From NCBI GenBank assembly GCA_964447515.1, contig CAYUSS010000005.1:1-62507 (forward strand): DNA of 62,507 nt, written 5' to 3'. Of this stretch, positions 3,312 through 38,800 are shown one piece after another. The notes below the pieces were generated by a model. It was not told the origin of the DNA. It was given only the letters and a program-made list of their open reading frames with translations, and ran no database searches. The position numbers and the translations under genes are program-made. Source of the DNA: an uncultured Candidatus Saccharibacteria bacterium (GTDB lineage: Bacteria; Patescibacteriota; Minisyncoccia; Minisyncoccales; GWA2-38-27). Position 1 is the first letter of the stretch. Every line of letters starts with the position of its first letter.

Positions 3312-4031
3312 CTAAAATGTGAAGGTTTTCTGAATACGTAGCATCTCCTCCCCGTCTTGGTCCCAGGTGAGCTGAAGATTGAAATCGCCGACGCCGCCGG
3401 GCAGTATACCGATGGGGTCCTTTATGACAATATTGGGACCCACTCGCCATGTCCACTCGTCGTCACCGACGTTTGCCCAAGAAGCATTTCCACCAACACC
3501 TACTTGAAGCCAGTCGTTGATTTTGTAGTTCAGAGATGTAGTGAGGGTAGAAAACTGTTCGGTCCCTTCGCTTTCCAGAGGCAGGTAATACATCGGCAGA
3601 CTGTTAAATCTCCATCTGCCCCAACCGCCTTCAATCCAGAAGCAAGGACCGAAATACTGAGAATCTTCGGCTACCACATAGTATGGCAATGCCCAGAAGT
3701 TGAGACCCAGAACGCTGAATGCCTTATAGCCGACGCAGAAGCCGAGCTCCTGATAGGAGCTGTCTCCGACATCGTAGTAGTAGATATCAGCAGGCACCAG
3801 CTTTCCTTTTGCCAGGAACACTTCTGTGTAACGACCGACAGCTTTCCAGTCCTTGTTCACTTCGGTCCGGAGACAAATCCATGCTGAAAGCGGATTTTCT
3901 TCCGGGCCGGCGGTAATGACCGCGGAGTCGAGGTTCGTTAGTTCATCCTTTGGCTGGTCCTGAGCATTTGTAGTCACGACAAAGAAAAACGTCGCTATTA
4001 CCATCAAGACAAAAACTCTTTCCTTTCTCAT
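3312..4031 (-). CDS. secreted hypothetical protein, beta-barrel-like
   Basis: Signal peptide, aromatic-rich alternating strands, C-terminal Phe (RIQKTFTF); visibly more GC-rich than its neighbours. Confidence 0.7.
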   Translation of the reverse strand: MRKERVFVLMVIATFFFVVTTNAQDQPKDELTNLDSAVITAGPEENPLSAWICLRTEVNKDWKAVGRYTEVFLAKGKLVPADIYYYDVGDSSYQELGFCVGYKAFSVLGLNFWALPYYVVAEDSQYFGPCFWIEGGWGRWRFNSLPMYYLPLESEGTEQFSTLTTSLNYKINDWLQVGVGGNASWANVGDDEWTWRVGPNIVIKDPIGILPGGVGDFNLQLTWDQDGEEMLRIQKTFTF

Positions 4032-4456: not shown

Positions 4457-5197
4457 ATGGAAAATTTTGAACCAAATTCAATAATTATGGAAATTAGAGC
4501 CGGGGCCGGCGGTGAAGAGGCCGGACTTTTTGCTGCTGATTTATTTAGAATGTATTCAAAATACGCTGTTTCTCAGAATTGGAGGCAGAAAATTTTAGAT
4601 TCACATCTAACCGAACTCAGCGGTTTCAAACAAATAATTTTTGAATTAAGGGACGGCGATGTTTTTTTTAAAATGAAATATGAAGGCGGAGTCCATCGGG
4701 TTCAAAGAATTCCCAAAACCGAAAAGTCAGGCAGGGTTCATACCTCAACCGCTACTGTTGCTGTTTTACCTAAACCCCAAAAAACTCAAATTAAAATAAA
4801 TCCCAGCGACTTAAAAATTGATATTTACAAATCTTCAGGACCGGGAGGCCAAAACGTCAATAAAAGAATGACCGCAGTAAGAATTACTCATTTACCAAGC
4901 GGGCTTGTTGTCGCTTCTCAGACCGAAAGAAATCAGCTTCAAAATAAAGAAAACGCTTTGTCAATTTTATCCGCCCGGCTTTTAGAAAAAAAAGGGCAAG
5001 AGGAAGAAACAAAAATTGGGGGCAAAAGAAAAACCCAGATTGGCAAAGCAAAAAGGGCTGAAAAAATTAGAACCTATAATTTTCCCCAAGACAGGGTAAC
5101 CGACCACCGGATTAAAAAAAGCTGGTCAAATATTGAGCAAATTATGGGAGGAAAATTAGATAAAATAATAAGTGTCCTACAAAAAAAGCTTCAATAA
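4457..5197 (+). CDS. prfA: peptide chain release factor 1, lacking N-terminal domain 1
   Basis: EIRAGAGGEEA, P-x-T motif (QRIPKTE), GPGGQ, RTYNFPQDRVTDHRI; only 246 aa. Confidence 0.9.
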   Translation: MENFEPNSIIMEIRAGAGGEEAGLFAADLFRMYSKYAVSQNWRQKILDSHLTELSGFKQIIFELRDGDVFFKMKYEGGVHRVQRIPKTEKSGRVHTSTATVAVLPKPQKTQIKINPSDLKIDIYKSSGPGGQNVNKRMTAVRITHLPSGLVVASQTERNQLQNKENALSILSARLLEKKGQEEETKIGGKRKTQIGKAKRAEKIRTYNFPQDRVTDHRIKKSWSNIEQIMGGKLDKIISVLQKKLQ

Positions 5198-7503: not shown

Positions 7504-7938
7504 TTATTTAATAATAAACTCATTAGAATAAAAGCGCTCATCCTCTTCAAACATTTCATTTATACTACATCCAACGCATGCCGGTATAGCAAGTCGGTGG
7601 GATACTGCGTCTATTAAAGGCAAGGTAAGTTCAAATGCTTTAACCTCTCCCGGACTGATACATTTTTCAACTAAATTATCAGTCAAACAGTCGGCATAAG
7701 AATAATCCTTCCATTTTCCTTCTTTTTTCTTTTCCAAATAATAAGGATAACAAGAAGAAAAACAAATGCTCTTTCTTGAATCATTTTCAATTTTTACTTT
7801 TAAAACTTTACTTGCCTCATACTCTGATTTATCAGTAATAACACTTACTTGCCCCTCTGAAGGAAGCAAAAAAGCAATTAAAATTATTATAGCTAAAACA
7901 GCTATACCTGTTCCTATTATTAAAAATTCCCTCTTCAT
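7504..7938 (-). CDS. hypothetical membrane-anchored Ig-like protein
   Basis: TM helix followed by a beta-rich domain (TDKSEY, several Cys). Confidence 0.65.
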   Translation of the reverse strand: MKREFLIIGTGIAVLAIIILIAFLLPSEGQVSVITDKSEYEASKVLKVKIENDSRKSICFSSCYPYYLEKKKEGKWKDYSYADCLTDNLVEKCISPGEVKAFELTLPLIDAVSHRLAIPACVGCSINEMFEEDERFYSNEFIIK

Positions 7939-9915: not shown

Positions 9916-10281
9916 TTATTTTTTATATTTTTTATCATATCCGCCGAGATAAACATTTGTGTGTTTACCTTTTGTCCTTGCAATTGGAAACCTTTTTTTA
10001 TTTTTTTTAATAACTCCTTGAATTGCTTCATCAATATCAATATCACAACTATTTGCTAATATTGCCAAAAACCAAAATATGTCTCCAATATTATCCTTTA
10101 CCTCTTTCTCATTCTCTAAAAGGACTTTTTTAATTATCTCTGGCTCTTGCTCCCATTTAATTATATTTCTAAATTCACCGATTTCTTCAATTATTCCTAA
10201 TAAAAGGTCTTTGGGATTATGAAATTGGTCCCAGTTTCTCTTTTCGCAAAATTTTTTAATTTCTTTTTGATAAGAATTCAT
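9916..10281 (-). CDS. MazG-like nucleotide pyrophosphohydrolase
   Basis: RNWDQFHNPKDL..GIIEEIGE and D..GD motif. Confidence 0.85.
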   Translation of the reverse strand: MNSYQKEIKKFCEKRNWDQFHNPKDLLLGIIEEIGEFRNIIKWEQEPEIIKKVLLENEKEVKDNIGDIFWFLAILANSCDIDIDEAIQGVIKKNKKRFPIARTKGKHTNVYLGGYDKKYKK

Positions 10282-10504: not shown

Positions 10505-11353
10505 TTATTTTTCAATTATTTTGTGTTTTTCCAGGCCTTCGGCGTAAAGTTTTTGGATTTGAGTCAAGTTCAAGGCTTCTTCATAAATGCGGACTCCGTC
10601 GATGAGGCCGTTGAAATAAGAACCACCTCCAGAATGACTATATCTACCTATGTTCAGAGGATTGGTAGTAGATGACAATACAGAAGCGCTCCCGTCAGTT
10701 CCCTTCACTCCATTTATATACACTTTAATAACATTGCTACCATCCCAAGTTCCTACTACATGATACCACTGCCCAACTGAAAGACCATTAGTAAAATAAG
10801 CAAAAGGAACAACGTTGGGAGTAGTAATAAAAAATTTTAAAGTTCCGCCAATACTATTTCGTAAAATCCACCCTTTATAATTCCCGCCATATTTAGTTGC
10901 TATTTCTTGATATGCACTAACACTCTTTGGTTTCACCCACGCCTCAACCGTAATCGCATCAGTAATATTCAAACTCTCATCATTGCCACAATCAACATAA
11001 TCATTCCCCCCGTCAAAATCAAGAGAATTTCCCAAGGCATTATTAGGAGTATCATCTGTCCATTGAGGGCAAGAACCTGTACCCGCAGTACAGGTTCCAT
11101 TTCCTAAGGTTCCATCATTTCCATTGCTGCTCATATCTTTCGCTGTTGTTCCACTACCTTCGTTAAAATCCCAAATACCTACGGCATAAGCTCCGAGAGC
11201 GTGATGAACTTGGGCAGAAAAGTTAAGGCCTTTAGCAATCCTGGCTTTGTCTTTTGCTCCTTTCAAACTAACTAAAACAATACTTGCTAAAAGTCCGATA
11301 ATAGCGATTACTACAAGAAGCTCTATAAGAGTGAAGGATTTTTGCTTTTTCAT
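10505..11353 (-). CDS. type IV pilin-like protein with LamG/laminin-G domain
   Basis: Class III signal KS|FTLIELLVVIAIIG; LDFDG, ITVEAWVKP, GQWYHVVGTWDG, GLIDGVRIY. Confidence 0.9.
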   Translation of the reverse strand: MKKQKSFTLIELLVVIAIIGLLASIVLVSLKGAKDKARIAKGLNFSAQVHHALGAYAVGIWDFNEGSGTTAKDMSSNGNDGTLGNGTCTAGTGSCPQWTDDTPNNALGNSLDFDGGNDYVDCGNDESLNITDAITVEAWVKPKSVSAYQEIATKYGGNYKGWILRNSIGGTLKFFITTPNVVPFAYFTNGLSVGQWYHVVGTWDGSNVIKVYINGVKGTDGSASVLSSTTNPLNIGRYSHSGGGSYFNGLIDGVRIYEEALNLTQIQKLYAEGLEKHKIIEK

Positions 11354-13872: not shown

Positions 13873-14391
13873 CTACTGACATCCCTGGCACATTCCAATA
13901 GTAATGCCACTGTAGTTAAAATAATGACCATCACAAGCTGTCACGCCTGGACTAGTTATATCCGGTTTTTCCAATTTATAAACCAACATATACCATTGCT
14001 GGGAACAACCATAACCCAAGGAGAAATAGCAATAATTATATTTGCCGCTCCCAGCCCAACCAGTTGTATCGTTGATTGGGTCCTTGGGAAGAGTAACTTC
14101 ATTGCTGAATTTGCTTTGGAGGATATTCCAGCTAGCGTCTCCACTATTGCTCCAGCCACCATTTGGAGAACTCGCTCCCCCTGAAGCAGGATATTCTTCG
14201 TTCTCCGCGTAATACACCTCTAATGCCGTCATTATTTGTCTTATTTCTGCTTTTCTTCTCGCATCTCTGGCTTTTTCTCTTGCCCCCTTTAAACCAACCA
14301 AAACAATGGAAGCCAAAAGACCGATAATGGCAATAACTACTAAAAGTTCGATAAGGGTAAACGATTTTTGTTTCTGCCTAAATTTTTGCAC
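13873..14391 (-). CDS. type IV pilin / GspG-like protein
   Basis: KS|FTLIELLVVIAIIG, ARDARRKAE, LPKDP. Confidence 0.9.
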   Translation of the reverse strand: MQKFRQKQKSFTLIELLVVIAIIGLLASIVLVGLKGAREKARDARRKAEIRQIMTALEVYYAENEEYPASGGASSPNGGWSNSGDASWNILQSKFSNEVTLPKDPINDTTGWAGSGKYNYCYFSLGYGCSQQWYMLVYKLEKPDITSPGVTACDGHYFNYSGITIGMCQGCQ

Positions 14392-14465: not shown

Positions 14466-15503
14466 TTAAACACTAATTTTTAGAGCTTTAATTTTTTTAG
14501 CTATTGCCAATTCCTCATCTGTTTTTATGGTTAAGATTTTAGTATTTTCTAAAATAGTTAAATTCTTACAAATGCTATTTCTAATCTTAGCAGAACCCGA
14601 ACCAATTGCCCCGGTAAATATTAATAAATCGCATCCTTCTAAAATAGCAAAATAAGCCCCGATATATTTTTGAATTTTATAAATAAATATTTCCAAGGCA
14701 AGTTTTGCTTTTTTGTCTCCTGTTTTAGCTTTTTTTAAAACTTCCAGCATCTCTCCTTCCCCGCTAATCCCTTTTATGCCTGATTCAATGTTTAAAAGTC
14801 TGTCGGTTTCTTTCACAGAAAAATTTTTAACAAGTTCTAAAACAATACCAGAATCAATATCGCCACAACGAGTCATCATTACCAACCCTTCCATTGGGGT
14901 AAAGCCCATTGAGGTGTCAATTGCTTTTCCGTTTTTTATAGCAGTAATGCTGGCTCCTCCGCCTAAATGACAGGTAATGATTTTCAATTTTTCAAATGGC
15001 TTTTTTATCTTTTTGGCTGCTGTTTTAGCTACATATTCATGAGAAATTCCATGAAAACCAAACCTTTGAAATCTATATTTCCTTCTTATATTTTCTGGTA
15101 AAGGATAAATATAAGCTTTTTTTGGTAAATTAGAATAAAATTCAGTGTCAAAAACAGCAATCTTGGGAACTCGGGGAAAAATTTTCTTGGCAATCTTTAT
15201 TCCTAAAACATTAAAAGGATTATGCAAAGGAGCTAATTTATTAAATTTTTCTAATTCTTTTAAGATTTTCTTATTTATTTTTATTGGTTTTTTAAATTTC
15301 TCTCCCCCGTGAACAACCCGATGTCCGATTATCCGGATATCTTTTTTATAGTTATCTAACTTATTTAATTCTTTTGTCAAAAAATTTTGATAATCTTTAG
15401 GATTAAAAACTTCTCTTTTCCCCTTTTTTATTAATTTTAAATCCTTCTTCTTAAACAACTTCCACTTTATTGACTGACTTCCGCAATCTAAAACTAAAAT
15501 CAT
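14466..15503 (-). CDS. ackA: acetate kinase (compact form)
   Basis: LDCGSQSIK, GHRVVHGG, LAPLHNP, GFHGISH, HLGGGAS, DTSMGFTP. Confidence 0.95.
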   Translation of the reverse strand: MILVLDCGSQSIKWKLFKKKDLKLIKKGKREVFNPKDYQNFLTKELNKLDNYKKDIRIIGHRVVHGGEKFKKPIKINKKILKELEKFNKLAPLHNPFNVLGIKIAKKIFPRVPKIAVFDTEFYSNLPKKAYIYPLPENIRRKYRFQRFGFHGISHEYVAKTAAKKIKKPFEKLKIITCHLGGGASITAIKNGKAIDTSMGFTPMEGLVMMTRCGDIDSGIVLELVKNFSVKETDRLLNIESGIKGISGEGEMLEVLKKAKTGDKKAKLALEIFIYKIQKYIGAYFAILEGCDLLIFTGAIGSGSAKIRNSICKNLTILENTKILTIKTDEELAIAKKIKALKISV

Positions 15504-16072
15504 AACAAAATTTCTCCTTTACCTTTTTTATTTATTCCGGCGGCGTTTCCTTCGTCAGTATCAAGGTGCATGCAGAGTCTATCGCCCTCACCTATTCTTA
15601 TTACAACATTATGAAATGTTAATCCTCTATCACCGCCGCATTTAACAGAAACCATAATTCTATCTTTGAATCCTAATTTTTCTGCTTCTTGGGGATTGCA
15701 GTGAATATGCCGCCAAGCAATTATTACTCCTTTTCTTAATTCTACTTCTCCCCTTGGGCCTATTAAAACTAACCCCGGGGTTCCTTCTAAATCCCCGGAA
15801 ACCTTAATTGGCGGATTTAATCCTAAATTAATGGCATCGGTTAAAGAAAGTTCTACTTGCGTTTCCTCTCTCGGCGGACCTATAATTCTTACTCCGGAAA
15901 ACCTTTTTCCGTTATAAAAAATATCTAATGTTTCCTGGGCCGCAAACTCAGGCGGTTCAGTAAGATCCTTAAATTTTTTAAGTTGATAATTTTCTCCAAA
16001 AAGAATACCTAAGTTCTTTTGAGAAAGATGAATATGCCTGGCTGAAATCTCAATTGGAATCTTCTTTTCCAT
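15500..16072 (-). CDS. pduL: PduL-type phosphate acyltransferase
   Basis: SARHIHL, RHIH, MHLDTDEGNAA; translationally coupled to ackA. Confidence 0.92.
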   Translation of the reverse strand: MEKKIPIEISARHIHLSQKNLGILFGENYQLKKFKDLTEPPEFAAQETLDIFYNGKRFSGVRIIGPPREETQVELSLTDAINLGLNPPIKVSGDLEGTPGLVLIGPRGEVELRKGVIIAWRHIHCNPQEAEKLGFKDRIMVSVKCGGDRGLTFHNVVIRIGEGDRLCMHLDTDEGNAAGINKKGKGEILL

Positions 16073-16157
16073 AATTAATTTTTGATTAAACTTGTTTTGC
16101 TTATTATACCTCTTTTTAAAAAAAATAAAAAATATTTCTAAACTCTATTGAAAATAA

Positions 16158-17321
16158 TTATTTTAATTCTAAATTTAATATTCTATCTATTTCCTCAGTA
16201 ATTTTTTTTACTACTATACTCCCGCCAAAATAAGTCAAATGTATACCATCTGAAATTCGAGCTAATTTATACCTCCCTCCATTATCAAGTAAATAAGAAG
16301 CATAATTACTTTCAGAATCGGCTAATAAACTCCAAGTTGAAAGGAAATAAACGTCTTGATGACTTTCAGCTTCTCTTTCATAAATCGAATTAAGATTATT
16401 TATTTTGTTGGAATATGGTTTATCTCTCATAATAGGAAGTCCTATCCAAAAAACAATAATATTTTTTTCTAAAAAAATCTCTGACAAATATGATACTCTT
16501 TCACCATATCCTTTATTCCACCCCGATGCTCCATAATTTTTAATAAATTTTCCGTCTGGAATTGATAATGATTGAGGATCATTTGCTCCAAACATAACTA
16601 TAGCTAAGTTCGGCTTGTATAAAGAAATAAGCTTTATAGTTTCTACATTCCAATTAAAATAGTCGGGTCTGGAAAGCCCGCTGGAAACCTTTCCCTCTCT
16701 TATAACCTCTACATTTTTATATGTTAAAAGCTCTCTTTCTAAAATATCCCCTACTCCTCCGCCGGTAGCTATGAAAGAATTTCCTATAATTAAAATCCTT
16801 AAAGGTAATTCGGGTCCTAAAATTAATTTATCGGCAGTAGCCTCTTTTGGAAGATGTTCTTCTTCTTTAGAAACTATTGCTTTTTCTTCAACTTTTTTTT
16901 CCGCTTCGGAGTCTTTTATAGTTTGTGGTTTCTCTACAACTTTAGTTTTCTCTGCTTCTTTTAATTTTTCTACCTTTTGTTCTATCAAACCAGTTATTTC
17001 TCTTTTAAGTATCTCTTCGGGATATTCTATATGAAAAACTAAAGGAGACTCTTTTATCTTAGCCCAAAAAGCATGTTCTTTTTTAAAAAACTTATTTAAA
17101 TCAAAAATTTCTTTTAGTTTTTCTGATTCATAGGCATATAATAAGATTGAAGATTGGAATATATTGCTTCCTTTAACTTCTTCTTGAATTCCCCATCTTA
17201 TAACTCTTTTTGATTCATAAAAAGGGACAATAACAATAATCAACAAAAAAAGTAAAATAACTTTTTTGTAGTTAGAAAGATTAAATTCTTTATCTGGGAA
17301 TTGATAATTAACCTCTTCCAT
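16158..17321 (-). CDS. DUF459/SGNH hydrolase-like O-acetyltransferase partner (PatB/AlgJ-like)
   Basis: GNS block I, SSGLSRPDYFNW, GAND, DGIH; directly downstream of the MBOAT gene. Confidence 0.8.
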   Translation of the reverse strand: MEEVNYQFPDKEFNLSNYKKVILLFLLIIVIVPFYESKRVIRWGIQEEVKGSNIFQSSILLYAYESEKLKEIFDLNKFFKKEHAFWAKIKESPLVFHIEYPEEILKREITGLIEQKVEKLKEAEKTKVVEKPQTIKDSEAEKKVEEKAIVSKEEEHLPKEATADKLILGPELPLRILIIGNSFIATGGGVGDILERELLTYKNVEVIREGKVSSGLSRPDYFNWNVETIKLISLYKPNLAIVMFGANDPQSLSIPDGKFIKNYGASGWNKGYGERVSYLSEIFLEKNIIVFWIGLPIMRDKPYSNKINNLNSIYEREAESHQDVYFLSTWSLLADSESNYASYLLDNGGRYKLARISDGIHLTYFGGSIVVKKITEEIDRILNLELK

Positions 17322-17329
17322 ATTTTGAA

Positions 17330-18790
17330 CTAAAAGTTGAAATAGATAAAAGACGGTACGGTATCGGGGCTAAGTTTAAATATTAATATTAGGGTTGCAA
17401 TTATAAACAAAAGCCAAAAAACTAAAGATAGCTTGTCTTGAATTTTTACCATGGTTTTAATGACTTCTTTTTCAAATAGAAAAAGCAAAAAGCCGATAAT
17501 CATAACAACTAAAATATAAAGCTTAAATGGTTCAATAGTTTTTCCGAAATTAAAAATGGATTTTATAAAAATAAAAATATTTTCTTTACCTTCTATTCGA
17601 AAAAATATCCAACTAAAGGAAACAAAAACAAAAGTGCTAAAACAACACAGTGCTTTTTTGGCAATACTGTTTTTCTTATTCAAATTTTTTCTGGTTAGAA
17701 AACTAATGTTTTCTTTTTTATAATCCTGTCTGTTTAACTTTCTATCTTTATAATAATGGGTTCCAGCTAAAGCTAATCCATGAAGAAATCCCCAAAAAAT
17801 AAAATGCATCTTTGGTCCATGCCAAAAACCAATTAAAGTCATAGCCACAATTAAATTAAAATATTTCCTTTTTCTCCCTTTTCGGTTTCCGCCCAAAGGA
17901 ATATAAACATAATCTCTAATCCAACTTGAAAGAGACATATGCCATCTTCTCCAAAACTCTTTAATATTTGAAGCTAAATAAGGAGTGTTGAAATTAATCG
18001 GCGATTTAAATCCCATTAATCCAGAAAAACCAATAGCTAGATCGCTGTAAGCACTAAAATCAAAATAAATAACTAATGAATAAGCAAAAATTGTTAACAC
18101 TATAACAGGGCTTGCAAAAGATTCTGGAATAGCAAAAACATCAAAGGTTAAATTTAAAACAAGATAACTTGAAATAACCAATTTTTTAAAAAGACCCAAT
18201 AAAATTAAAGTAACATTCTCATTTAAATTTTCTATTTTCCTTGCTCCCCCGTCTTTAAGCTGAGTTAAAAAATCTTTAGCCCGCATTATTGGGCCGGAAA
18301 GAAGTTGTGGGAAAAATGCAACATAAACTAAAAAATTAACAAAAGGTGCGGGTACTATTTTTTTTGAATAAACATCGATATTGTAAGAAATCGTCCTAAA
18401 AATATAAAAAGACAACCCTATTGGCAAAATTATTTCAACAAGAGGAAAAGTAACTAAAATGCCAATTTTTTCTAATAATAATTCCGCCGAGCTTCGAAAA
18501 AAATCATAATATTTAAATAATCCCAATACATAAATATTACCGATAATTGCTAATATCAACATCGGTTTACTTCTGCTAAAAGAGTTTTTATAAATTAAAT
18601 AAGCAGTAAAAAAATTAAAGATAGAAGTTGCGAAAAGGATTACCAAAAAATGGATATCTAAAAATAAATAAAAAATATAACTTGAAAAAAGCAACCATAA
18701 ACGCCAAAAAAGAGGCCAACGTTTTAAAAACCAATTTAAAATTAAAACAAGAGTAAAAAAAATAAAAAAGCCAAAAGTAAAAAAATTCAT
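17330..18790 (-). CDS. MBOAT O-acyltransferase (AlgI/PatA-like)
   Basis: LPIGLSFYIF, FFPQLLSGPI, YFDFSAYSD, FWRRWHMSLSSWIRDYVYIPLGG, GFWHG. Confidence 0.92.
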   Translation of the reverse strand: MNFFTFGFFIFFTLVLILNWFLKRWPLFWRLWLLFSSYIFYLFLDIHFLVILFATSIFNFFTAYLIYKNSFSRSKPMLILAIIGNIYVLGLFKYYDFFRSSAELLLEKIGILVTFPLVEIILPIGLSFYIFRTISYNIDVYSKKIVPAPFVNFLVYVAFFPQLLSGPIMRAKDFLTQLKDGGARKIENLNENVTLILLGLFKKLVISSYLVLNLTFDVFAIPESFASPVIVLTIFAYSLVIYFDFSAYSDLAIGFSGLMGFKSPINFNTPYLASNIKEFWRRWHMSLSSWIRDYVYIPLGGNRKGRKRKYFNLIVAMTLIGFWHGPKMHFIFWGFLHGLALAGTHYYKDRKLNRQDYKKENISFLTRKNLNKKNSIAKKALCCFSTFVFVSFSWIFFRIEGKENIFIFIKSIFNFGKTIEPFKLYILVVMIIGFLLFLFEKEVIKTMVKIQDKLSLVFWLLFIIATLILIFKLSPDTVPSFIYFNF

Positions 18791-18900
18791 AGGATAAATA
18801 ACATTAATTTATTATATCCCCTGCCAAAAAGACTTTCCAAATCTTTCTGGCTCAAATGAATATGCCGAGCTGAAACCTCAATTGGATTTTTTTTATTCAT
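18787..18900 (-). pseudogene. relic 5' end of a pduL allele (37 aa)
   Basis: MNKKNPIEVSARHIHLSQKDLESLFG versus intact MEKKIPIEISARHIHLSQKNLGILFG; its TGA overlaps the MBOAT ATG. Confidence 0.85.
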
Positions 18901-18980
18901 AAAACTTTTGAACCTGTTATATTATTATAGCCTAAAAATTCTGAAGAAAAAGCTGCCCATGGGGATAACCAATATCATTT

Positions 18981-19037
18981 ATCAACGAGGCCCGTCCTCG
19001 TTGATTTTACCTCCGCATACCGGTATGCGGAGGTAAA
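18981..19037. repeat. two adjacent palindromes
   Basis: ATCAACGAGG-5 nt-CCTCGTTGAT (same arms at 3152-3176), then a perfect 32-bp palindrome TTTACCTCCGCATACC|GGTATGCGGAGGTAAA. Confidence 0.85.
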
Positions 19038-19123
19038 CTGAAAGTATACGGGATTATCTCGTATAAATAAAAAAAAATGGCTCAAAAAGATTGAGCCACT
19101 CTTGCCGGGCTTGCTTCAAAGGA

Positions 19124-19366
19124 CTAAGTAGCTTCCATAACTTTCTGTGGTTCATCCTGTTTCATCAAGCCATTGCCTATAAAACAGACCTTAAGTTGGT
19201 TTCCCAATGCCTTATGTCCCTACATGGTAACCGCTGAAGAATCAACTCCACCAGACAGGGTAATAATAACAGAATCTTTTCCAACTATTTTTGATATTTC
19301 CCTTACTTTCCTCTCTATAAACTCTCCAGCATTTAATTCCTACGCTGTTATTTTTTTGTTTTCCAT
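19124..19366 (-). pseudogene. GMP synthase subunit B / PP-loop ATPase N-terminal pseudogene
   Basis: MENKKITA*ELNAGEFIERKVREI...TLSGGVDSSAVTM*GHKALG...GNGLMK; two in-frame TAG stops and truncation after 80 codons. Confidence 0.8.
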
Positions 19367-19388
19367 CTCCTTGCCTCCTTTATTTTCC

Positions 19389-19562
19389 TTACAGATATCT
19401 AATTACTCTTTCTAAATACTCCAGGCTGAATTCTTTCTCCGGGCAAGAATAAACTATCACGCCTTCTCGCAATAAAAGACGAAAAGGCACTCTCCTTTTC
19501 CCAACTCTCTCTTTTTTAAGTTGATATCCTGGAGGCAGTGTAAAGTCATCGCCCTGATTCAT
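19389..19562 (-). CDS. small hypothetical protein (57 aa), missing from the ORF track
   Basis: AAAGGAG RBS, MNQGDDFTLPPGYQLKKERVG...; TTGACA-17-TAATCT upstream at 19605-19633. Confidence 0.5.
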   Translation of the reverse strand: MNQGDDFTLPPGYQLKKERVGKRRVPFRLLLREGVIVYSCPEKEFSLEYLERVIRYL

Positions 19563-19709
19563 TTTTTTCTCCTTTATTAAGTTTTGCTTCGTTGTACTAC
19601 TATCAGATTATCAAACTAGCTTGTAACTGTCAAGAAAAATTAAAAAAAGTGTGCGGGAAAAGGTCCCGCACAAACATATACTACATTCTCCACGGCCGTA
19701 GGAAATGTA

Positions 19710-20717
19710 TTACAATTTTTTTCCGATGAATTCGGCGAATTCGGCTAATCGGCAGGCATAGCCGTATTCATTATCATACCAGCTGACAACCTTAATTAAG
19801 TTGTCTTGAACCATTGTCTGGGGAGCATCAACGATTGTTGAATAGGTATCACCGATAAAATCTGTGGAAACCAGGGGTTCTTCTTCTATTCTCAAAATCC
19901 CTTTAAGTTTCTCAGTTTCAGATGCTTTTTTAAAGGCATTATTCACCTTTTCAACATTAGTAGCTTTTTCCACTTTTACAACTAAATCTAAAATCGAAAC
20001 CGTGGGCGTAGGAACCCGAAGAGCAATCCCATTTAATTTACCCTCTAATTCAGGAATAATTTTTCCGATTGCTTTGGCCGCTCCGGTGGTGGTAGGAACA
20101 ATATTTAAAGCAGCGGCTCTGGCTCTTCTTAAATCTTTATGAGGTAAATCTAAAATTCTCTGATCGGTAGTGTAGCTATGGATAGTGGTCATAAATCCTT
20201 TCTCAATTACAAAATTATCATTTAAAACCTTTACTGTCGGGGCTAAGCAATTAGTAGTGCAAGAGCCCATATCAATAATATCATCTTTCTCTGGCGCAAA
20301 TTTTTCTTCATTTACACCCAAAACAAAACCCGGAATTTCTGGACTTTTTCCCGGAGCTGAAATAATCACTTTTTTAGCTCCAGCTTTAATATGTTTCTTT
20401 GCTCCTTCTAAATCTCTAAAAACTCCTGTGCATTCTAAAACCACATCCACCCCTAAATCTTTCCAAGGCAGCTTTTCCGGGTCCTTCTCTTCAAAAACTC
20501 TAAATTTCTTTCCATTAACCGTAATACTCTCTTGGTCAAATTCCATTTCTTTGTCATATCTTCCATAGACAGAATCATATTTTAAAAGATGGGCCAGAGT
20601 TTTGTTGTCTGTTAAGTCATTGATTGCCACAACCTCCAAATCCGGATGATTTTCTATAATCCTCCGAAATGTTGGCCGACCAATCCGACCGAAGCCATTG
20701 ATAGCAATTTTAACCAT
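19710..20717 (-). CDS. gap: type I glyceraldehyde-3-phosphate dehydrogenase
   Basis: AINGFGRIGR, SCTTNCL, SWYDNEYGY. Start set at MVKIA. Confidence 0.97.
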   Translation of the reverse strand: MVKIAINGFGRIGRPTFRRIIENHPDLEVVAINDLTDNKTLAHLLKYDSVYGRYDKEMEFDQESITVNGKKFRVFEEKDPEKLPWKDLGVDVVLECTGVFRDLEGAKKHIKAGAKKVIISAPGKSPEIPGFVLGVNEEKFAPEKDDIIDMGSCTTNCLAPTVKVLNDNFVIEKGFMTTIHSYTTDQRILDLPHKDLRRARAAALNIVPTTTGAAKAIGKIIPELEGKLNGIALRVPTPTVSILDLVVKVEKATNVEKVNNAFKKASETEKLKGILRIEEEPLVSTDFIGDTYSTIVDAPQTMVQDNLIKVVSWYDNEYGYACRLAEFAEFIGKKL

Positions 20718-20725
20718 AGAAATTG

Positions 20726-20977
20726 TTATTCTTGGATATTTAATAATCCACAAATTTTCTCTTTATCAAAACCAACCACGACTTGACCATCTATATCAAC
20801 AACCGGCACTCCCATCTGGTCCGATTTCTTTACCATCTCATCCAAAGCCGATTTATCTTTTGAAACATCAATATCTTCAAATTCAATATTATACTCTTTT
20901 AAGAATTGTTTCAAGGTAAGGCAATACGGACACATACTTGTACTATATACCCGAACTTTCGGTTGTTTATTATTCAT
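20726..20977 (-). CDS. glutaredoxin-like protein (NrdH/YruB family)
   Basis: CPYC, QMGVPV, VVGFD. Confidence 0.9.
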   Translation of the reverse strand: MNNKQPKVRVYSTSMCPYCLTLKQFLKEYNIEFEDIDVSKDKSALDEMVKKSDQMGVPVVDIDGQVVVGFDKEKICGLLNIQE

Positions 20978-24324: not shown

Positions 24325-24852
24325 TTATTGTTTTTCAAACCCACCAGCAACCCAATCAAATTCACTCTGCCAATTCCGGCTCGGGCAACTCCAGCCAGGA
24401 CTGTCGGGATGAGGCCTACCACTACTTTCCATGCCACGAACACCTAAAACGAAAAAAGGACCCTTGGCCGAATCGCAACCGGCATTGCCGGCAGGATATC
24501 TATAATAATTATATCCATAACAACCTGTTCCTGAACCGTCTTTTGGATCAGTAGGAGTTCCCCCTGGAAACAACCCTTCTGTTGCTAAAGCACCAATAAA
24601 AGGATCCCCCCCACATGGTCCTTGATCCCAGCCATCGCAACAGCTATCCCCAGAAATATTAGGATACCTTCCATATTTATCGTGATATATCCGAAGAGCT
24701 GTTAGTATTTGATTCATATCATGTAATCTTACAGCATCTCTTGCCCTTTCTCTTGCTCCCTTTAAACTAACCAAAACAATAGAAGCTAAAAGACCTATAA
24801 TGGCAATGACTACTAAAAGTTCGATTAGGGTGAATGATTTATTATGTTTCAT
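24325..24852 (-). CDS. type IV pilin / GspG-like protein
   Basis: KS|FTLIELLVVIAIIG, ARDAVRLHD, PTDP, Cys-rich tail. Confidence 0.9.
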   Translation of the reverse strand: MKHNKSFTLIELLVVIAIIGLLASIVLVSLKGARERARDAVRLHDMNQILTALRIYHDKYGRYPNISGDSCCDGWDQGPCGGDPFIGALATEGLFPGGTPTDPKDGSGTGCYGYNYYRYPAGNAGCDSAKGPFFVLGVRGMESSGRPHPDSPGWSCPSRNWQSEFDWVAGGFEKQ

Positions 24853-28253: not shown

Positions 28254-28958
28254 TTATTTTATTTTTCTTTTTAAATAATCTTGAGCTTCTTTTTCAAAAT
28301 ATTCTTTTATTTTGTTTGGCTTATAAAATTCTTTTTTGAATATCAAGGGTTTAATCTCATTTAACCTTGCTGCTCCTTCTAAAATTTTACTCACCAATAA
28401 AACTGGGTCTATCTCTACTCCGAATTTCTTCTTGACCCATTTTAAAATTGTAAGAAATTTAATTTTCTTTTTTTTAAAAATACAATAAAGATCAAAAACA
28501 TCTTTTGCTTCGGCTCGTTCAAAAATAGTATGGGTCTTATTGGCTAACATGTCTTCAATTGCATCAATTTTAATATTAAACTCTTTAAGCTTTAATGGTC
28601 TTTTAATCTTGGGAAAAGGATAAAACACGAACTCAATTTTCAAAACTTCTCTATTCTTTTTAAACCAAAATTGGTGACGATTAAATTTTTTTTGTTCTTC
28701 AATTTCTTTAATTTTTAAGCTCTTGGCAATTTTTTTAATCTGACTTAAAAGATAATCATCTGCCAGTAAATCTTTTGATAAAAAATCTAAATCCTGGGAC
28801 TTACGATGGGAAAGATATTGATAAGCAAGGGCAGTTCCACCCGACCAAACAAAATAAGAACCGAGTTTACTCTTCCCAATTTCTTTTAGTGCTTCTTTTT
28901 GAAAAGGGGTTAGAACTTTATCCGGCACCTTTTTATTTTTATTAATAATATTAGTCAT
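28254..28958 (-). CDS. AbiEii/AbiGii-family nucleotidyltransferase toxin
   Basis: SGGTALAYQYLSHRKSQDLDF, ANK, R...KDVFDL. Confidence 0.85.
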   Translation of the reverse strand: MTNIINKNKKVPDKVLTPFQKEALKEIGKSKLGSYFVWSGGTALAYQYLSHRKSQDLDFLSKDLLADDYLLSQIKKIAKSLKIKEIEEQKKFNRHQFWFKKNREVLKIEFVFYPFPKIKRPLKLKEFNIKIDAIEDMLANKTHTIFERAEAKDVFDLYCIFKKKKIKFLTILKWVKKKFGVEIDPVLLVSKILEGAARLNEIKPLIFKKEFYKPNKIKEYFEKEAQDYLKRKIK

Positions 28959-28995
28959 AAACTGTTATAACCCGCATACTAAAAAGGTGCGGGGT

Positions 28996-29208
28996 TTAAC
29001 CATATTTCTTCAAAAAATTTCTAAGAATTTGTTTGAGATAAACATTAATTTTTAATCTGGACAAATACTTCTTTAAGGTTTTTTTATCTAAGACCTCCCA
29101 ATCACCATGTTCAACTTTTCTTTGCAAATACCAAAGCAAAACCCTGGGATTAGATAAATCCAGTTTTTTAACATCGTAATCCCAAATGTAATTTTTGGTA
29201 AGTTTCAT
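28996..29208 (-). CDS. small helical protein, putative antitoxin partner
   Basis: YIWDYD..KLDL motif; immediately upstream of the AbiEii gene. Confidence 0.6.
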   Translation of the reverse strand: MKLTKNYIWDYDVKKLDLSNPRVLLWYLQRKVEHGDWEVLDKKTLKKYLSRLKINVYLKQILRNFLKKYG

Positions 29209-29288
29209 ACTTTTATTTTATCATAATTTTAATCAAAATAAAACACCCTGCCCGCGTGAAACGCGGGTAGGGGATGTTTGAAATCTTA

Positions 29289-29936
29289 TTACTCCAAAAA
29301 GCGAAAAGTGGAAAGCATTTGGTTGGTAATTCTTCCTTGTTCTTGGCTGGGGATATAATCTTCTTGTTCAGATAAATCAAGACTATATGCTTCATGGAGC
29401 GACCACCTCTCAATCAAAAAAGTATTTACTCCTTTTTCTTTAACACAATAATAGAAAATTCCTTCTCCTTCAGCTCCGCTATAATATCTATCCCCTTCTA
29501 TATTTCCAAGATTGAAAGCTTCGGGTTCCTCCCCGTATTTCTGAAAGAAAGACTTTAATTCGTCGCACTGACTTGTATCCTTTTTAAAAGTTATTGAGAT
29601 ATCACCAGCTAAACCTAAATCACTTCCATCTTTTTTGCTGTACATATGGAAGTTTTTTAAGGTGTGTGAGAGAGTAACTTTATTAACATCTAATTGAAAA
29701 ATATCACTTGGATACTTCACTTCAAATCCATATTCTTCGTTTCGATAAATCTCCCAATTAGCGGTTTCGTCTTCTTGGGTAATTTCTCCTTCCGGCGGCT
29801 TAGCTTCCTCTTTTGCTAACCACCCATACTGCCAGACTAAAATTCCTCCAGCTAAGAGAAGACAAATGACAATAATCAGAATTCCTACAGGAGTAGAAAT
29901 TCCCTTATTAAGATTAGTTTGATTTTGATTATTCAT
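29289..29936 (-). CDS. secreted PsbP-like hypothetical protein
   Basis: KGISTPVG signal/TM segment, WEIYRNEEYGFEVKYP, C-terminal QMLSTFRF. Confidence 0.7.
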   Translation of the reverse strand: MNNQNQTNLNKGISTPVGILIIVICLLLAGGILVWQYGWLAKEEAKPPEGEITQEDETANWEIYRNEEYGFEVKYPSDIFQLDVNKVTLSHTLKNFHMYSKKDGSDLGLAGDISITFKKDTSQCDELKSFFQKYGEEPEAFNLGNIEGDRYYSGAEGEGIFYYCVKEKGVNTFLIERWSLHEAYSLDLSEQEDYIPSQEQGRITNQMLSTFRFLE

Positions 29937-35820: not shown

Positions 35821-38800
35821 TTATTGGGCGTAATTACAAATTTCTCTAAAATCACAAAACTTGCACTGCCAGCCAGGATTTGGAGCAAAATCACTCTTTT
35901 CAATTTTTTCAATCTCTAACAATATTTTTTCTTTTTGTTTTTCTTTTTCCTTTTCTTTACCCAAAAAAGAAGTTATCTTCCCTTCTTTTAAATAATAATA
36001 ACCAAGTTTTGTTGGTTTAAGCCCAAAAATCTCTTCAACGGCAATCTGATAAATCAAAAGCTGTTGTTTATCTTCTGAAGATAATTTCTCTTTAAATCTC
36101 CCGGTTTTATAGTCAATAATTCCCACCCCGGTTTTCAATTTATCAATCCTGTCTATTCTGCCCAATAAAATATGTCCTCCCAGCTTTAATTTAAAAGGCA
36201 GTTCCAGAGCAATTTGCTTATTGATTCTTAAAATCTCCGGCGGCTTTTCTTGAAATTTATTGTAAAAATCTTTAAGTATTTTCCTGCCTAATTTATAATA
36301 TCCCTGCTTTTGATTTTGGGATTCATACCATTCATCAATCCATTTTTGCTTATATATCTTAACTAAATCTTCAAAATTAAAACCCTTAACACCCGACGTT
36401 TTCCTCGGCGCCTCTGGCGCCAATTCCTCAACGTCGGGTGTTGAAAGGTCGGGTTTTGTATCAACAAACAAATTGCTCTGGCTAACCCATTTTTGTTCAA
36501 TAACCAATTTCACAAACTGGTATAAGGTATTGTGTATTGTCTTACCAAAAGAGAAAACCGCCTTGCCCCTAATCGGCACTCTAAGAATATGGGCAAATTT
36601 ATATTGTAAAGGGCATTTTTCAAAAGCGGCTAATTGGGAAAATGAAAAATGAGAAGGCAGGATATTCTTAACGCCCTTAATACTCTTAACATCTTCAACA
36701 CCCGACGTTTCCCTTGGCGCCTCTGGCCCGCCTAAATTTTTCTCTGAAAAACTTAGGCGGGCTGGCGTCAATTCCTCAAGGTTGGGTGTTGTAACATCAA
36801 GTTTTTTACCAAAACCCATTTCAATTAAAAATCTTGATGGTTTCTTCTTTCTCAGACCACCGTAATCATCGGCTGAAGTAAAAAATAATTTCTCCTTTGC
36901 TCGAGTCATTGCCACATAACAAAGCCTTCTCTCCTCTTGTAAATGGACATCGCCTTGAGTAATAAGCTCTTTAACTAATTCCCGGGGAATTTCAATCGGT
37001 TCTTTGCGTTCAGTAGTTGGAAATTTTCTGTCTGTTAAATTAACTAAAAATACATATTTGAATTCCAGACCCTTGGCCGAATGAATAGTCATTATTCTGA
37101 CCATATCCGGCCCCTGTTCAGGGTCAAATTCAAGTTTACCCTGCTGTCCTGATTCTATTTCTAAATTTATTTGTTCTATAAAATTTTTAAGGGTTGGGTC
37201 TATTGCCAATTCCTCAAACTCTTTGACTTTTTTATAAAACTGATTGATTAAATCCAAGTCCTGCTTGCCTCCCATCACTTTTTCTTGAAAAGTGGTGGGG
37301 GGTTTACTTTCTTTATCTATCAAATAATTTAAATAACCGGAATCTTTTAAAAAGGCAACCAAAACCTCAGAAACATTTTTCTGGCGCGACAGCTCAGTGT
37401 GTTTCTGAAGTAAACTTAAAAGAAAATTAATTTTATTATGGGTTTTTTGGGAAAGGCCGTAAATTAAAGGAAGCTCCCGGAGGGTCTGGTAAATTGATTT
37501 TGCTTTCCGCCAACTATATTGAGTAATTTTCATTATTTCTTCTGAAGGAATTTCTAAAAATGGCAAATTCAAAATTCTATAAATTGAAGAACCCTCCTCA
37601 TAATTATCTAAAAGTTTAAAATAAGAAATAATATCTAAAATAACCGGCTTGGTATAAAGTCCCCGAGAGGCTAAAAACTGATAAGGAAAACCGGCTCTCT
37701 CTAATGCCCTAATAAATGAGTTGGCTGATTCATTTGTTCTAACTAAAATAGCAAAATCATTAAAATTTGCTTCTTTGTCTTTTTTCAAAATCTCGCTAAT
37801 TTTATTGAGCACTCCCTGGGTCTCCTCCTCTGAATCTTTAAAATGTGAGCACTCAATAAGACCTTTGTCTTTTTTGTCAGCAATCAATTTTTTATTAACT
37901 TTACTAACATATTCAAGCCGATTGGGATTATTGGCTTTGATAAATTTGTAAGATAAATCCAAGATATTTTGAGCAGAACGATAATTTTTAATCAAAGAAA
38001 TTTCTTTCGCCTTGGGAAAATCTTTCCTGAATTGGATAATGTTATTAAAAGAGGCCCCGCGCCATCTATAGATTGCCTGGTCATCGTCAGCCGAGACCGT
38101 AAGATTATTTTTTGGTACGGCTAATATTTTTGCTAATTCATATTGAGCCCAGTTAGTATCCTGAAACTCGTCAATTAAAATATACTTAAATTTTTCTCTG
38201 TACTTTTCCAAAATAAGGGGTCTTTCTTGGAAAAGTTTCAAGCAGTAATTAATTAAGTCGCCAAAATCCAAAAAATTATTTTCCAGAAGCAAATTCTGAT
38301 AAATATGATATGCCTCAGCCACCTCTTTAATTCTTTCTGTTTCCTGATTTTCCGGCAAATCAGTGAGATTAGTTTTTAGCCCTTCGCTATATTTTAAATA
38401 ATCTTCTGGATAAATTCCCTGGTCTTTACAACGGGAAAAATGAGAAATTAAAGCCTGGACAAATTTAGTTGGTCTGCCCAAGGGTTTGTAATAATCAAGC
38501 TTAAATTTATCTAAATTCTGCCTAATCAAAAGCCAAGCGGCAGTTTGGTCTAATAATTTAAAATCAGGAGACAAGCCAATATCCAAAGCATGCTCTTTTA
38601 AAATTCTTTGACAAAAAGAATGAAAAGTAGAAATCCATAAATCCATATAGCCGTAGGGCAAAAGTATATCTACCCGTTCTTCCATTTCTCCGGCCGCTTT
38701 GTCAGTAAAAGTTACTGCTAAAATTTCCTCCGGTTTAGCTTTGTTGCTTTCAATTAAATAAGCAATGCGTTGGGTAATTACTGTTGTTTTGCCGGTGCCG

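What the first reader, a model, noticed from the sequence alone, without database searches (positions are those of the whole stretch)
16029..18900. MBOAT-SGNH cargo bracketed by a leftover pduL 5' end and an intact pduL
A 37-aa ORF at 18787-18900 is a diverged copy of the first ~30 codons of pduL (SARHIHLSQK conserved) and breaks off exactly at the MBOAT start; the full pduL follows the cargo. Inference: donor DNA carrying [MBOAT-DUF459-pduL...] recombined homologously downstream and joined illegitimately inside the resident pduL. This is the signature expected of homology-facilitated illegitimate recombination during natural transformation. The cargo is a PatA/PatB- or AlgI/AlgJ-type surface O-acetylation pair.
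Basis: partly seen in the sequence, partly recalled or inferred. Interest (0 to 1): 0.68.

Follow-up and report, generated by a model that had tools for sequence, protein, structure and literature searches.

The report
Leftover gene stub marks imported cassette
In an uncultivated salt-marsh Patescibacteria genome, a cell-wall O-acetylation gene pair sits between a 32-codon stub of a second, different pduL and an intact pduL that carries a recently imported patch, which is a natural footprint of one-sided (homology-facilitated illegitimate) recombination rather than a new kind of system.

Summary
ORF 18787-18900(-) copies pduL codons 1-32 (Pfam PTAC E=8.7e-8). It ends in an ATGA overlap with a full-length MBOAT gene. 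A PatB-like SGNH gene and then an intact pduL-ackA follow.

The stub is not a recent local duplicate. It differs from the intact copy at background inter-lineage level (60/90 nt, pS 0.75, pN 0.24) yet has barely decayed. Six related lineages have GAPDH directly abutting pduL, with no cargo.

The intact pduL carries a low-divergence patch at codons 6-159. It is 7.4% different from relative L008, against 26.5% elsewhere (chi2 82.8; shuffles reach at most 17.4). L008 is the only other lineage found with an MBOAT-PatB pair next to pduL, but its pair is inverted and only 46-57% identical.

Best reading (about 0.55): DNA carrying MBOAT-PatB-promoter-pduL crossed over near pduL codon 159 and joined illegitimately at resident codon ~32.

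Not shown: the donor, the direction of the patch transfer, and uptake by transformation (no comEC or dprA in the window).

The kind is known and the interest moderate.

The parts
18787..18900 (-). pduL 5' relic ORF (37 aa). Codons 1-32 (18805-18900) are pduL-homologous. The TGA stop overlaps the MBOAT ATG.
   Evidence: Pfam PTAC positions 1-25, E=8.7e-8. 21/30 aa and 60/90 nt to the intact copy, pS 0.75 and pN 0.24. Among codons 1-29 only one residue (N5) is unseen in 108 homologues, and one extra codon (N30) follows.
18791..18804 (-). Junction zone: 14 nt between the last pduL-like codon and the MBOAT start. The illegitimate joint lies here.
   Evidence: Homology to 108 PduL N-termini ends at relic codon 32. 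The MBOAT N-terminus is complete relative to its homologues.
18901..18990 (-). Promoter region of the relic (I*), with a -10 TATAAT at 18924-18929. It probably now drives the cargo genes.
   Evidence: Read from the sequence. It resembles the pduL promoters of relatives, which have a hairpin, then TATAAT, then ATG. A second promoter-like site, TTGGAA-18-TATAAT, lies inside the relic at 18811-18840; such matches are common in this AT-rich DNA.
17330..18790 (-). MBOAT O-acyltransferase (PatA/DltB-like), 486 aa
   Evidence: Pfam PF03062 E=9.4e-30. PDB DltB 1e-32. Best database homologue 64% identical.
16158..17321 (-). PatB-like SGNH/DUF459 protein, 387 aa: N-terminal hydrophobic stretch, K/E-rich linker, catalytic domain at residues ~175-378
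   Evidence: Pfam DUF459 E=5.9e-52. PDB PatB 8TLB 1.8e-17 and 7TJB 7e-14; GNS, GANDP and DGIH blocks align.
16893..16900 (-). A8 homopolymer in the linker of the PatB-like gene. An A7 frameshift allele coexists in the population.
   Evidence: Contigs L005-L007 carry the 1-bp deletion. Runs X15 and X16 hold contigs with the deletion at this site, at partial depth.
16073..16157 (-). Intergenic region with the promoter of the intact pduL (-10 TATAAT at 16103-16108)
   Evidence: Sequence and comparison with relatives' promoters.
15500..16072 (-). Intact pduL (PduL-type phosphotransacylase), 190 aa
   Evidence: Pfam PTAC E=3.1e-67. NCBIfam phosphate propanoyltransferase 235 bits, above the 209-bit cutoff.
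15596..16057 (-). Low-divergence patch, pduL codons 6-159, shared with lineage L008. This is the inferred homologous arm of the import.
   Evidence: 34/462 nt differences versus 26.5% outside; chi2 82.8 against a maximum of 17.4 in 200 shuffles. pS is 0.28 for pduL versus 0.57-0.78 in nine other genes.
14466..15503 (-). ackA (acetate kinase), at background divergence from L008
   Evidence: Pfam Acetate_kinase E=2.8e-103. pS 0.60.
19085..19366 (-). guaA-like 5' pseudogene fragment with three in-frame TAG stops: a second relic in the same island
   Evidence: Translation. Hits to split GMP-synthase genes at 49-60% identity. A terminator-like hairpin lies at 19073-19103.
19389..19562 (-). 57-aa ORF of unknown function, part of the lineage-specific island
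   Evidence: No Pfam or NCBIfam hit. Absent from the L008 and L100 loci.
18991..19052 (.). Palindrome (perfect 24-nt core at 19010-19033) upstream of the relic promoter. Short-read contigs break here.
   Evidence: Unique in the window.
19710..20753 (-). GAPDH, the conserved left flank of the variable site
   Evidence: 65-79% identity to syntenic GAPDH genes in relatives. Its own terminator lies at 19650-19672.

Best explanation
The ancestor of this organism had GAPDH - (orf57, guaA' debris) - promoter - pduL* - ackA. Linear DNA arrived from another Patescibacteria lineage whose pduL resembles that of L008. That DNA carried MBOAT, a PatB-like SGNH gene, a pduL promoter and most of pduL.

Its right end recombined within pduL, with the crossover near codon 159, just before the conserved HLDTDEGN motif. 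Its left end, which began at the MBOAT start codon, was joined illegitimately to the resident pduL* at about codon 32. Resident codons ~33-159 were lost.

The result is: resident promoter + 32-codon stub | MBOAT-PatB | donor promoter + chimeric pduL. The stub is probably kept because it now supplies the promoter for the promoterless cargo, and through the ATGA stop/start overlap the translation start as well.

Shown: the anatomy, the divergences, the patch, and the cargo-free relatives. Inferred: the single-event link between stub and patch, the direction of transfer, the expression role of the stub, and the entry route of the DNA.
For: 1. The stub and the intact copy differ at inter-lineage background level. 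They share 60/90 nt, with pS 0.75 (saturated) against pN 0.24. They therefore diverged as functional genes in different genomes.
2. The stub is young. Among codons 1-29 only one residue is never seen in 108 homologues, and there is one extra codon. That is far too little decay for an event as old as the split from L008.
3. The intact pduL codons 6-159 are 7.4% diverged from L008, versus 26.5% in GAPDH, the rest of pduL, ackA and PPDK (chi2 82.8; shuffles reach at most 17.4). pS is 0.28 versus 0.57-0.78. The same codons are at background divergence from L100, so this is not general constraint.
4. GAPDH abuts pduL with a 74-131 bp spacer in L029, L032, L034, L083, L100 and L105. L105 is collinear with the window over about 27 kb.
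5. None of the more than 80 other pduL loci screened shows an MBOAT or SGNH match beside pduL. Only the window and L008/L009, the two that share the patch, have an MBOAT-PatB pair next to pduL. The pair elsewhere sits in unrelated contexts.
6. Crossovers inside pduL also occur in the L008 lineage. L016 has ackA, pilin and PPDK 99.7-100% identical to L008, but its pduL codons 1-75 and its upstream gene are different.
7. The island has no transposase, integrase or terminal repeats.
8. The com genes are conserved across CPR, and Saccharibacteria are naturally transformable (PMC10633639).
Against: - No donor with a co-directional MBOAT-SGNH-pduL arrangement was found.
- L008's own pair is inverted and only 57% (MBOAT) and 46-54% (SGNH) identical, with saturated pS. 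The donor must therefore have had an L008-like pduL but a very different cassette allele.
- The patch starts at codon 6 rather than in the promoter region, which needs a further boundary event between the donor and L008.
- The direction of the patch transfer cannot be polarised with the available genomes.
- The stub's N-terminus is consensus-like. It ties at 25/30 with many lineages, so it cannot be assigned specifically to the window's own lineage.
- Background identity of about 70-75% is low for RecA-type homologous recombination, so the right-hand crossover is homeologous at best.
- No comEC or dprA lies in the window.
Confidence: 0.55

Rival explanations
1. Mirror-image one-sided recombination. 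The cassette and the intact pduL were resident. Incoming DNA from the left (GAPDH side) carried orf57, guaA', a terminator, a foreign pduL promoter and its first 32 codons. It anchored homologously in or upstream of GAPDH, and its right end joined illegitimately just upstream of the resident MBOAT start. The pduL patch shared with L008 is then a separate gene-conversion event.
For: The stub's N-terminus is of the generic type found in L100, L101 and many others, not the derived type shared by the intact copy and L008. Grx, GAPDH and Trx are slightly closer to L100 than to L008. orf57 and guaA' are absent from both L008 and L100.
Against: There is no low-divergence patch on the left flank: GAPDH pS is 0.65-0.74 to every relative. 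The incoming DNA would carry only a pseudogene and a 57-aa ORF, so no selective reason is visible. The model needs an extra independent event to explain the pduL patch lying right next to the cassette.
Confidence: 0.15
2. The cassette is old at this locus, inherited from the common ancestor of the window lineage and L008 and inverted in one of them. The stub and the patch come from later, unrelated recombination events at a labile site.
For: MBOAT divergence from L008 (pS 0.67, pN 0.25) lies within the range of vertically inherited neighbours such as FBA and Trx. Both lineages have the pair between GAPDH and pduL. The site is labile in many lineages: acs, purM, IS200-like and housekeeping genes are inserted there in others.
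Against: About 40 database MBOATs from other contexts are closer (58-64%) than L008's (56%). The SGNH partner likewise is 53-58% identical elsewhere versus 46% for L008. A simple inversion cannot place a co-directional pduL stub upstream of MBOAT, so a one-sided recombination is still needed to make the stub.
Confidence: 0.15
3. Local duplication of the pduL promoter and 5' end (a target duplication or tandem duplication when the cargo was inserted), followed by neutral decay of one copy.
For: Direct repeats flank the cargo.
Against: Synonymous sites are saturated (pS 0.75) while pN is 0.24, and the stub keeps family-typical residues at 28 of its first 29 positions. Neutral decay of a duplicate would give pS about equal to pN and would degrade the peptide. 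The promoter regions and codons 1-5, which lie outside the L008 patch, are also diverged.
Confidence: 0.03
4. Insertion by a mobile element (IS, integrase-type island, integron-like cassette).
For: One relative (L020) has an IS200-like ORF, judged from its N-terminal sequence only, in the same gap.
Against: The window's island has no transposase or integrase, no terminal inverted repeats and no short target duplications. The unique palindrome at 19010-19033 is not repeated anywhere in the window.
Confidence: 0.03

Closest known systems
Homology-facilitated illegitimate recombination (HFIR), described experimentally in Acinetobacter baylyi, Streptococcus pneumoniae and Pseudomonas stutzeri (de Vries & Wackernagel 2002; Prudhomme et al. 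2002; Meier & Wackernagel 2003, as cited in PMC5361080), and in E. coli conjugation (PMC3240628)
   Same: One end of the imported DNA lies in homologous sequence (the pduL patch ending near codon 159). The other end joins without homology inside the recipient gene. Recipient DNA between the two points is lost and foreign genes are gained.
   Different: This is a natural footprint inferred from sequence, not an observed event. Neither parent is available, so microhomology at the joint cannot be read. The anchor is homeologous (about 70-75% background identity), not near-identical. The route of DNA entry is unknown.
Orphan immunity-gene arrays in Vibrio cholerae T6SS clusters and orphan 3' ends in Rhs/CDI loci (PMC5361080)
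   Same: Incoming modules displace resident genes and leave truncated or orphaned remains next to the new module. The proposed mechanism is a conserved anchor on one side and an illegitimate join on the other.
   Different: There the anchor is upstream and the relics are 3' ends or immunity genes, which often stay functional. Here the anchor is downstream and the relic is a 5' end with its promoter. The cargo is an envelope-modification pair, not a toxin module.
Cassette switching at surface-polysaccharide loci through recombination in conserved flanking genes (my own knowledge: pneumococcal cps between dexB and aliA; E. coli O-antigen between galF and gnd)
   Same: Deeply divergent versions of an envelope-modifying cassette occupy the same site in two lineages. 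A recombination patch lies in the conserved flanking gene.
   Different: Only two lineages are known so far. One cassette is inverted. The left junction in the window is illegitimate rather than homologous.
PatA/PatB peptidoglycan O-acetyltransferase pair (Neisseria, Campylobacter; PDB 7TJB, 7TRR, 8TLB)
   Same: An MBOAT membrane protein is followed by a DUF459/SGNH protein with the Ser, Gly, Asn and Asp-x-x-His blocks. PatB is the best solved-structure match.
   Different: Identity is low and the NCBIfam PatB score (74 bits) is far below the 580-bit equivalog cutoff. The protein has an N-terminal hydrophobic stretch and a K/E-rich linker. The organism is a Patescibacteria, which as far as I know lack an outer membrane. 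The acceptor glycan is unknown.

Membership tests
HFIR footprint | Inserted DNA is absent from the same site in related genomes | tested here: met
   GAPDH abuts pduL (74-131 bp spacer) in L029, L032, L034, L083, L100 and L105.
HFIR footprint | One junction lies within homologous sequence, with donor-type sequence up to a crossover | tested here: inconclusive
   A sharply bounded low-divergence patch covers pduL codons 6-159, but the direction of transfer and the link to the cargo event cannot be proven.
HFIR footprint | The other junction has no extended homology and usually 3-10 bp of microhomology | not testable with these tools
   The joint is localised to 18791-18804. Neither the donor nor the uninterrupted recipient sequence is available.
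HFIR footprint | Recipient DNA between anchor and joint is deleted | tested here: met
   The resident-type pduL stops at codon 32. No further stub-type pduL sequence is present in the window.
HFIR footprint | DNA entered by natural transformation (ComEC, DprA, ComFC) | not testable with these tools
   None of these genes is in the 62.5-kb window, which has only three pilin-like genes. The literature reports com genes conserved across CPR (PMC10633639).
PatA/PatB O-acetyltransferase pair | MBOAT protein with the conserved histidine motifs | tested here: met
   PF03062 E=9.4e-30. The RWH and WHG motifs are present in the translation.
PatA/PatB O-acetyltransferase pair | Adjacent DUF459/SGNH partner with a catalytic Ser, a Gly, an Asn and an Asp-x-x-His | tested here: met
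   PF04311 E=5.9e-52. GNS, SGL, GANDP and DGIH align with PatB structures 8TLB and 7TRR.
PatA/PatB O-acetyltransferase pair | Score above the curated PatB equivalog cutoff | tested here: not met
   NF045704 scores 74 bits against a cutoff of 580. This is a distant relative, not an equivalog.
PatA/PatB O-acetyltransferase pair | Acetylates O-6 of MurNAc in peptidoglycan | not testable with these tools
   Needs biochemistry.
AlgI/AlgJ/AlgX alginate O-acetylation | AlgJ/AlgX-type partner and alginate biosynthesis neighbours | tested here: not met
   The partner hits DUF459 and GDSL families only. The neighbours are pduL, ackA and GAPDH.
DltABCD D-alanylation | DltB equivalog together with dltA, dltC and dltD | tested here: not met
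   TIGR04091 scores 180 bits against a cutoff of 375. No dltA, dltC or dltD lies nearby.
Mobile element / genomic island | Transposase or integrase, terminal repeats, target duplication | tested here: not met
   None found in 16073-19700.

The most novel reading that the evidence does not exclude
The 5' part of pduL serves as a recurrent recombination arm next to a labile site (GAPDH|pduL) in Patescibacteria. Deeply divergent envelope O-acetylation cassettes are swapped between lineages through it, as happens at capsule or O-antigen loci. In this genome the displaced pduL stub has been taken over as the promoter and translational-coupling leader of the imported cassette. Four different breakpoints inside one 570-bp gene would be traces of this traffic: codon 6 and codon 159 (window versus L008), about codon 32 (end of the stub) and about codon 75 (L016 versus L008).
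Probability: 0.3. Interest if true: 0.6.

Novelty: new member of a known kind. Interest (0 to 1): 0.45.

Why it matters
Patescibacteria (CPR) are almost entirely uncultivated. How they exchange genes is known mainly from gene content (com genes, pili) and from one experimental system in Saccharibacteria.

A datable natural footprint in which both junctions can be localised gives sequence-level evidence that one-sided recombination adds new genes to these small genomes. It also shows that central-metabolism genes can act as the homology arm.

The cargo is an envelope O-acetylation pair, a kind of function that elsewhere affects lysozyme, autolysin and phage sensitivity. Swapping it could therefore matter for the episymbiotic lifestyle. 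A frameshift allele of the PatB-like gene coexists in the population.

None of this is a new mechanism. It is a well-resolved example.

Tried and rejected
1. I first treated L008 as a sister genome and the intact pduL as 'vertical'. I rejected this when per-gene pS showed pduL to be the only low-divergence gene. The window, L100 and L008 are roughly equidistant.
2. In-situ duplication and decay: rejected on pS much greater than pN.
3. Simple inversion of an L008-like arrangement: it cannot give a co-directional stub with an intact pduL (reasoning).
4. Campbell-type integration of a circle: it would duplicate the whole homologous segment, not 32 codons.
5. Mobile element: no hallmarks.
6. Assembly artefact: rejected. 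Short-read contigs break at 19035 because of the palindrome, with equal depth on both sides.
7. TAG reassignment as an explanation for the three in-frame TAGs in guaA': rejected, because the MBOAT gene itself ends in TAG.
8. Protein search with the stub failed because the query was under 40 aa. A degenerate-codon DNA scan of the metagenomes replaced it and found L100 and L101.
It was still useful for synteny.
10. The guaA' search returned only four split guaA genes in unrelated contexts.
11. No RNA runs are available, so the promoter use of the stub is untested.
12. GC and GC3 do not distinguish donor from recipient.
13. Assigning the stub to a lineage by amino-acid identity fails, because it ties at 25/30 with many lineages.
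14. An Rfam search of the GC-rich ORF 3312-4031 found nothing.


Full report
**What is there.**
All genes in the region lie on the minus strand. In the direction of transcription, the window reads as follows:
- GAPDH (19710-20753) with its own terminator
- a 57-aa ORF (19389-19562)
- a guaA-like 5' fragment with three in-frame TAG stops (19085-19366) ending at a terminator-like hairpin
- a unique palindrome (19010-19033)
- a TATAAT promoter (18924-18929)
- the 37-aa ORF (18787-18900)
- an MBOAT gene (17330-18790)
- a DUF459/SGNH gene (16158-17321)
- an 85-bp spacer with another TATAAT
- an intact pduL (15500-16072)
- ackA (14466-15503), a pilin gene and PPDK

The 37-aa ORF matches Pfam PTAC positions 1-25 at E=8.7e-8. 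It is the top direct repeat of the region when paired with the start of pduL. Comparison with 108 homologues puts the end of homology at relic codon 32. Fourteen unassignable bases follow. The relic's TGA then overlaps the ATG of an MBOAT that is complete from residue 1.

Contigs assembled separately from several salt-marsh samples carry the locus at 99.95-100% identity, and a number of them span the relic-MBOAT junction.

**The stub is a different pduL, not a decayed duplicate.**
Over 30 codons the two copies share 60/90 nt. pS is 0.75 (saturated) and pN is 0.24. That equals the divergence between pduL genes of different lineages (66-67% nt).

Even so, among its first 29 codons the stub has only one residue (N5) never seen in 108 homologues, followed by one extra codon. 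The two copies therefore diverged as working genes in different genomes. The stub stopped being a gene only recently.

**Relatives.**
A conserved order, Trx-Grx-GAPDH-pduL-ackA-(pilin)-PPDK, is found across Patescibacteria.
- In six lineages (L029, L032, L034, L083, L100, L105) GAPDH abuts pduL with only a terminator and promoter between them.
- L105 is collinear with the window over about 27 kb, apart from several small window-specific inserts.
- Other lineages have other genes in the gap, judged from their N-terminal sequences: acs, purM, an IS200-like gene and housekeeping genes. The site is therefore labile in general.
- Only L008/L009 also have an MBOAT plus PatB-like pair next to pduL. 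That pair is on the opposite strand and is 57% and 46-54% identical.
- Elsewhere the pair is a widespread two-gene module in unrelated contexts. Its best matches to the window's copy are 62-66% identical.

**The patch.**
Gene-by-gene comparison shows that the window, L100 and L008 are about equidistant, with pS 0.56-0.78 and 52-78% amino-acid identity. The exception is pduL between the window and L008: 85% aa, 88% nt, pS 0.28.

A breakpoint scan places the low-divergence tract at pduL codons 6-159. It has 34/462 differences, against 26.5% outside (chi2 82.8; the maximum in 200 shuffles is 17.4). Upstream of the ATG there is no similarity. The last 30 codons and ackA are back at background divergence. 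The same codons are at background divergence between either genome and L100, so constraint does not explain the patch.

A second case of a breakpoint inside pduL comes from L016. It is 99.7-100% identical to L008 in ackA, pilin and PPDK. Its pduL codons 1-75 are foreign, and its upstream gene is a PfkB-type kinase like those that precede pduL in loci labelled Falkowbacteria and in other Patescibacteria loci. One caveat: L016 is a 2.9-kb metagenome contig, so a chimeric assembly cannot be excluded.

**Best explanation.**
One event accounts for all of the following:
- a young stub at background divergence
- a recent import tract in the adjacent intact pduL
- a cassette that lies next to pduL only in the two lineages that share that tract
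- the absence of any mobile-element hallmarks

In that event, DNA carrying MBOAT-PatB-promoter-pduL crossed over near pduL codon 159. Its other end joined illegitimately to resident codon ~32.

The stub's decay (about 1-2 aberrant changes in roughly 73 non-synonymous sites) is of the same order as half the patch divergence (3.7%). That is consistent with one event.

The stub keeps a promoter. A second promoter-like site (TTGGAA-18-TATAAT) lies inside it (weak evidence in AT-rich DNA). Together with the ATGA overlap, this suggests the stub now serves to express the cargo, which arrived without its own upstream region. That last step is inference.

**What remains open.**
- The donor was not found.
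- L008's own cassette is a very different, inverted version. The donor must therefore have combined an L008-like pduL with another cassette allele, and a further boundary at codon 6 is needed.
- The direction of the patch transfer cannot be polarised.
- The stub's consensus-like N-terminus ties at 25/30 with many lineages. Its best nucleotide matches are L100 at 72/90 and L020 at 71/90. It cannot be assigned specifically to the window's own lineage.
- A mirror model remains possible: the stub would be the end of DNA that came in from the GAPDH side, and the patch would be a separate conversion. This model needs more events and has no left-flank patch.
- Natural transformation is plausible for CPR (PMC10633639). 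It is untested here, and the window holds no comEC or dprA.

**Cargo.**
- The SGNH protein's best solved relatives are PatB peptidoglycan O-acetyltransferases (8TLB 1.8e-17; 7TJB and 7TRR 7e-14). The GNS, GANDP and DGIH blocks are aligned.
- The MBOAT is nearest to DltB among solved structures.
- Both proteins fall far below the NCBIfam equivalog cutoffs.
- There is no AlgJ/AlgX-type or Dlt context.

The pair works like PatA/PatB on an unknown envelope glycan, but it is not an equivalog.

An A8 tract in the linker has an A7 frameshift allele. That allele is present in several samples, and contigs in runs X15 and X16 carry the deletion at partial depth.

**Verdict.**
This is a new example of a known kind of event in a little-studied phylum, and the interest is moderate.

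Noticed in passing
window 19085-19366 (-): A guaA-like (PP-loop ATP-pyrophosphatase, SGGVDSS motif) 5' fragment of about 85 codons. It has three in-frame TAG stops and no frameshift, and it ends at a terminator-like hairpin. It is a second gene relic in the same island. No intact guaA is in the window.
   Followed up: partly
window 16893-16900: An A8 homopolymer in the PatB-like gene. An A7 frameshift allele splits the gene and removes the catalytic Ser block from the called C-terminal ORF. It occurs in contigs L005-L007, and contigs with the deletion are present at partial depth in runs X15 and X16. This could be phase variation or ongoing loss.
   Followed up: partly
L016:1-986 versus L008:7745-8467: L016 and L008 look like the same species (ackA 99.7%, pilin and PPDK 100%). 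Yet pduL codons 1-75 and the upstream gene are completely different: a PfkB-type kinase in L016 versus an inverted MBOAT in L008. This is either a natural mosaic with a crossover inside pduL or a chimeric contig.
   Followed up: partly
window 6000-32000 versus L105 and L100: The window is collinear with L105 from FtsZ to the release factor. It has several small window-specific inserts between conserved genes: PsbP_2-like plus AbiEii toxin (28254-29936), three pilin-like genes (24325-24852, 13873-14391, 10505-11353 with a LamG domain), MazG (9916-10281) and Big_14 (7504-7938).
   Followed up: partly
window 4457-5197 (+): The release-factor gene next to rpmE is only 246 aa and lacks the N-terminal domain (its PCRF match starts at profile position 98). 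L105 has a 244-aa version, while L008 has 348 aa.
   Followed up: no
window 3312-4031 (-): A 239-aa ORF with GC 0.50 and GC3 0.57 in a 36% GC genome. It has no Pfam, NCBIfam or Rfam match.
   Followed up: partly
window 19010-19033: A perfect 24-nt palindrome (within 31-nt imperfect arms at 18991-19052), unique in the window. All short-read contigs break here and a 32-nt contig of double depth sits on it.
   Followed up: yes
window 50604-53072 (-), 35821-38883 (-), 28254-28958 (-): A fused N6-methylase/HsdR-N type restriction-modification protein, an AddA-like UvrD-PD-(D/E)XK helicase-nuclease and an AbiEii toxin. These are defence and recombination functions that may bear on DNA uptake and integration.
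   Followed up: no
runs X2 and X5, contigs matching window 18854-18901: A co-occurring organism in the same samples has a pduL whose first 48 nt are 43/48 identical to the stub. It continues as ...SQEDMEKLFG and has a hairpin plus TATAAT upstream. This is the closest nucleotide match to the stub seen, but it covers only the most conserved codons.
   Followed up: no
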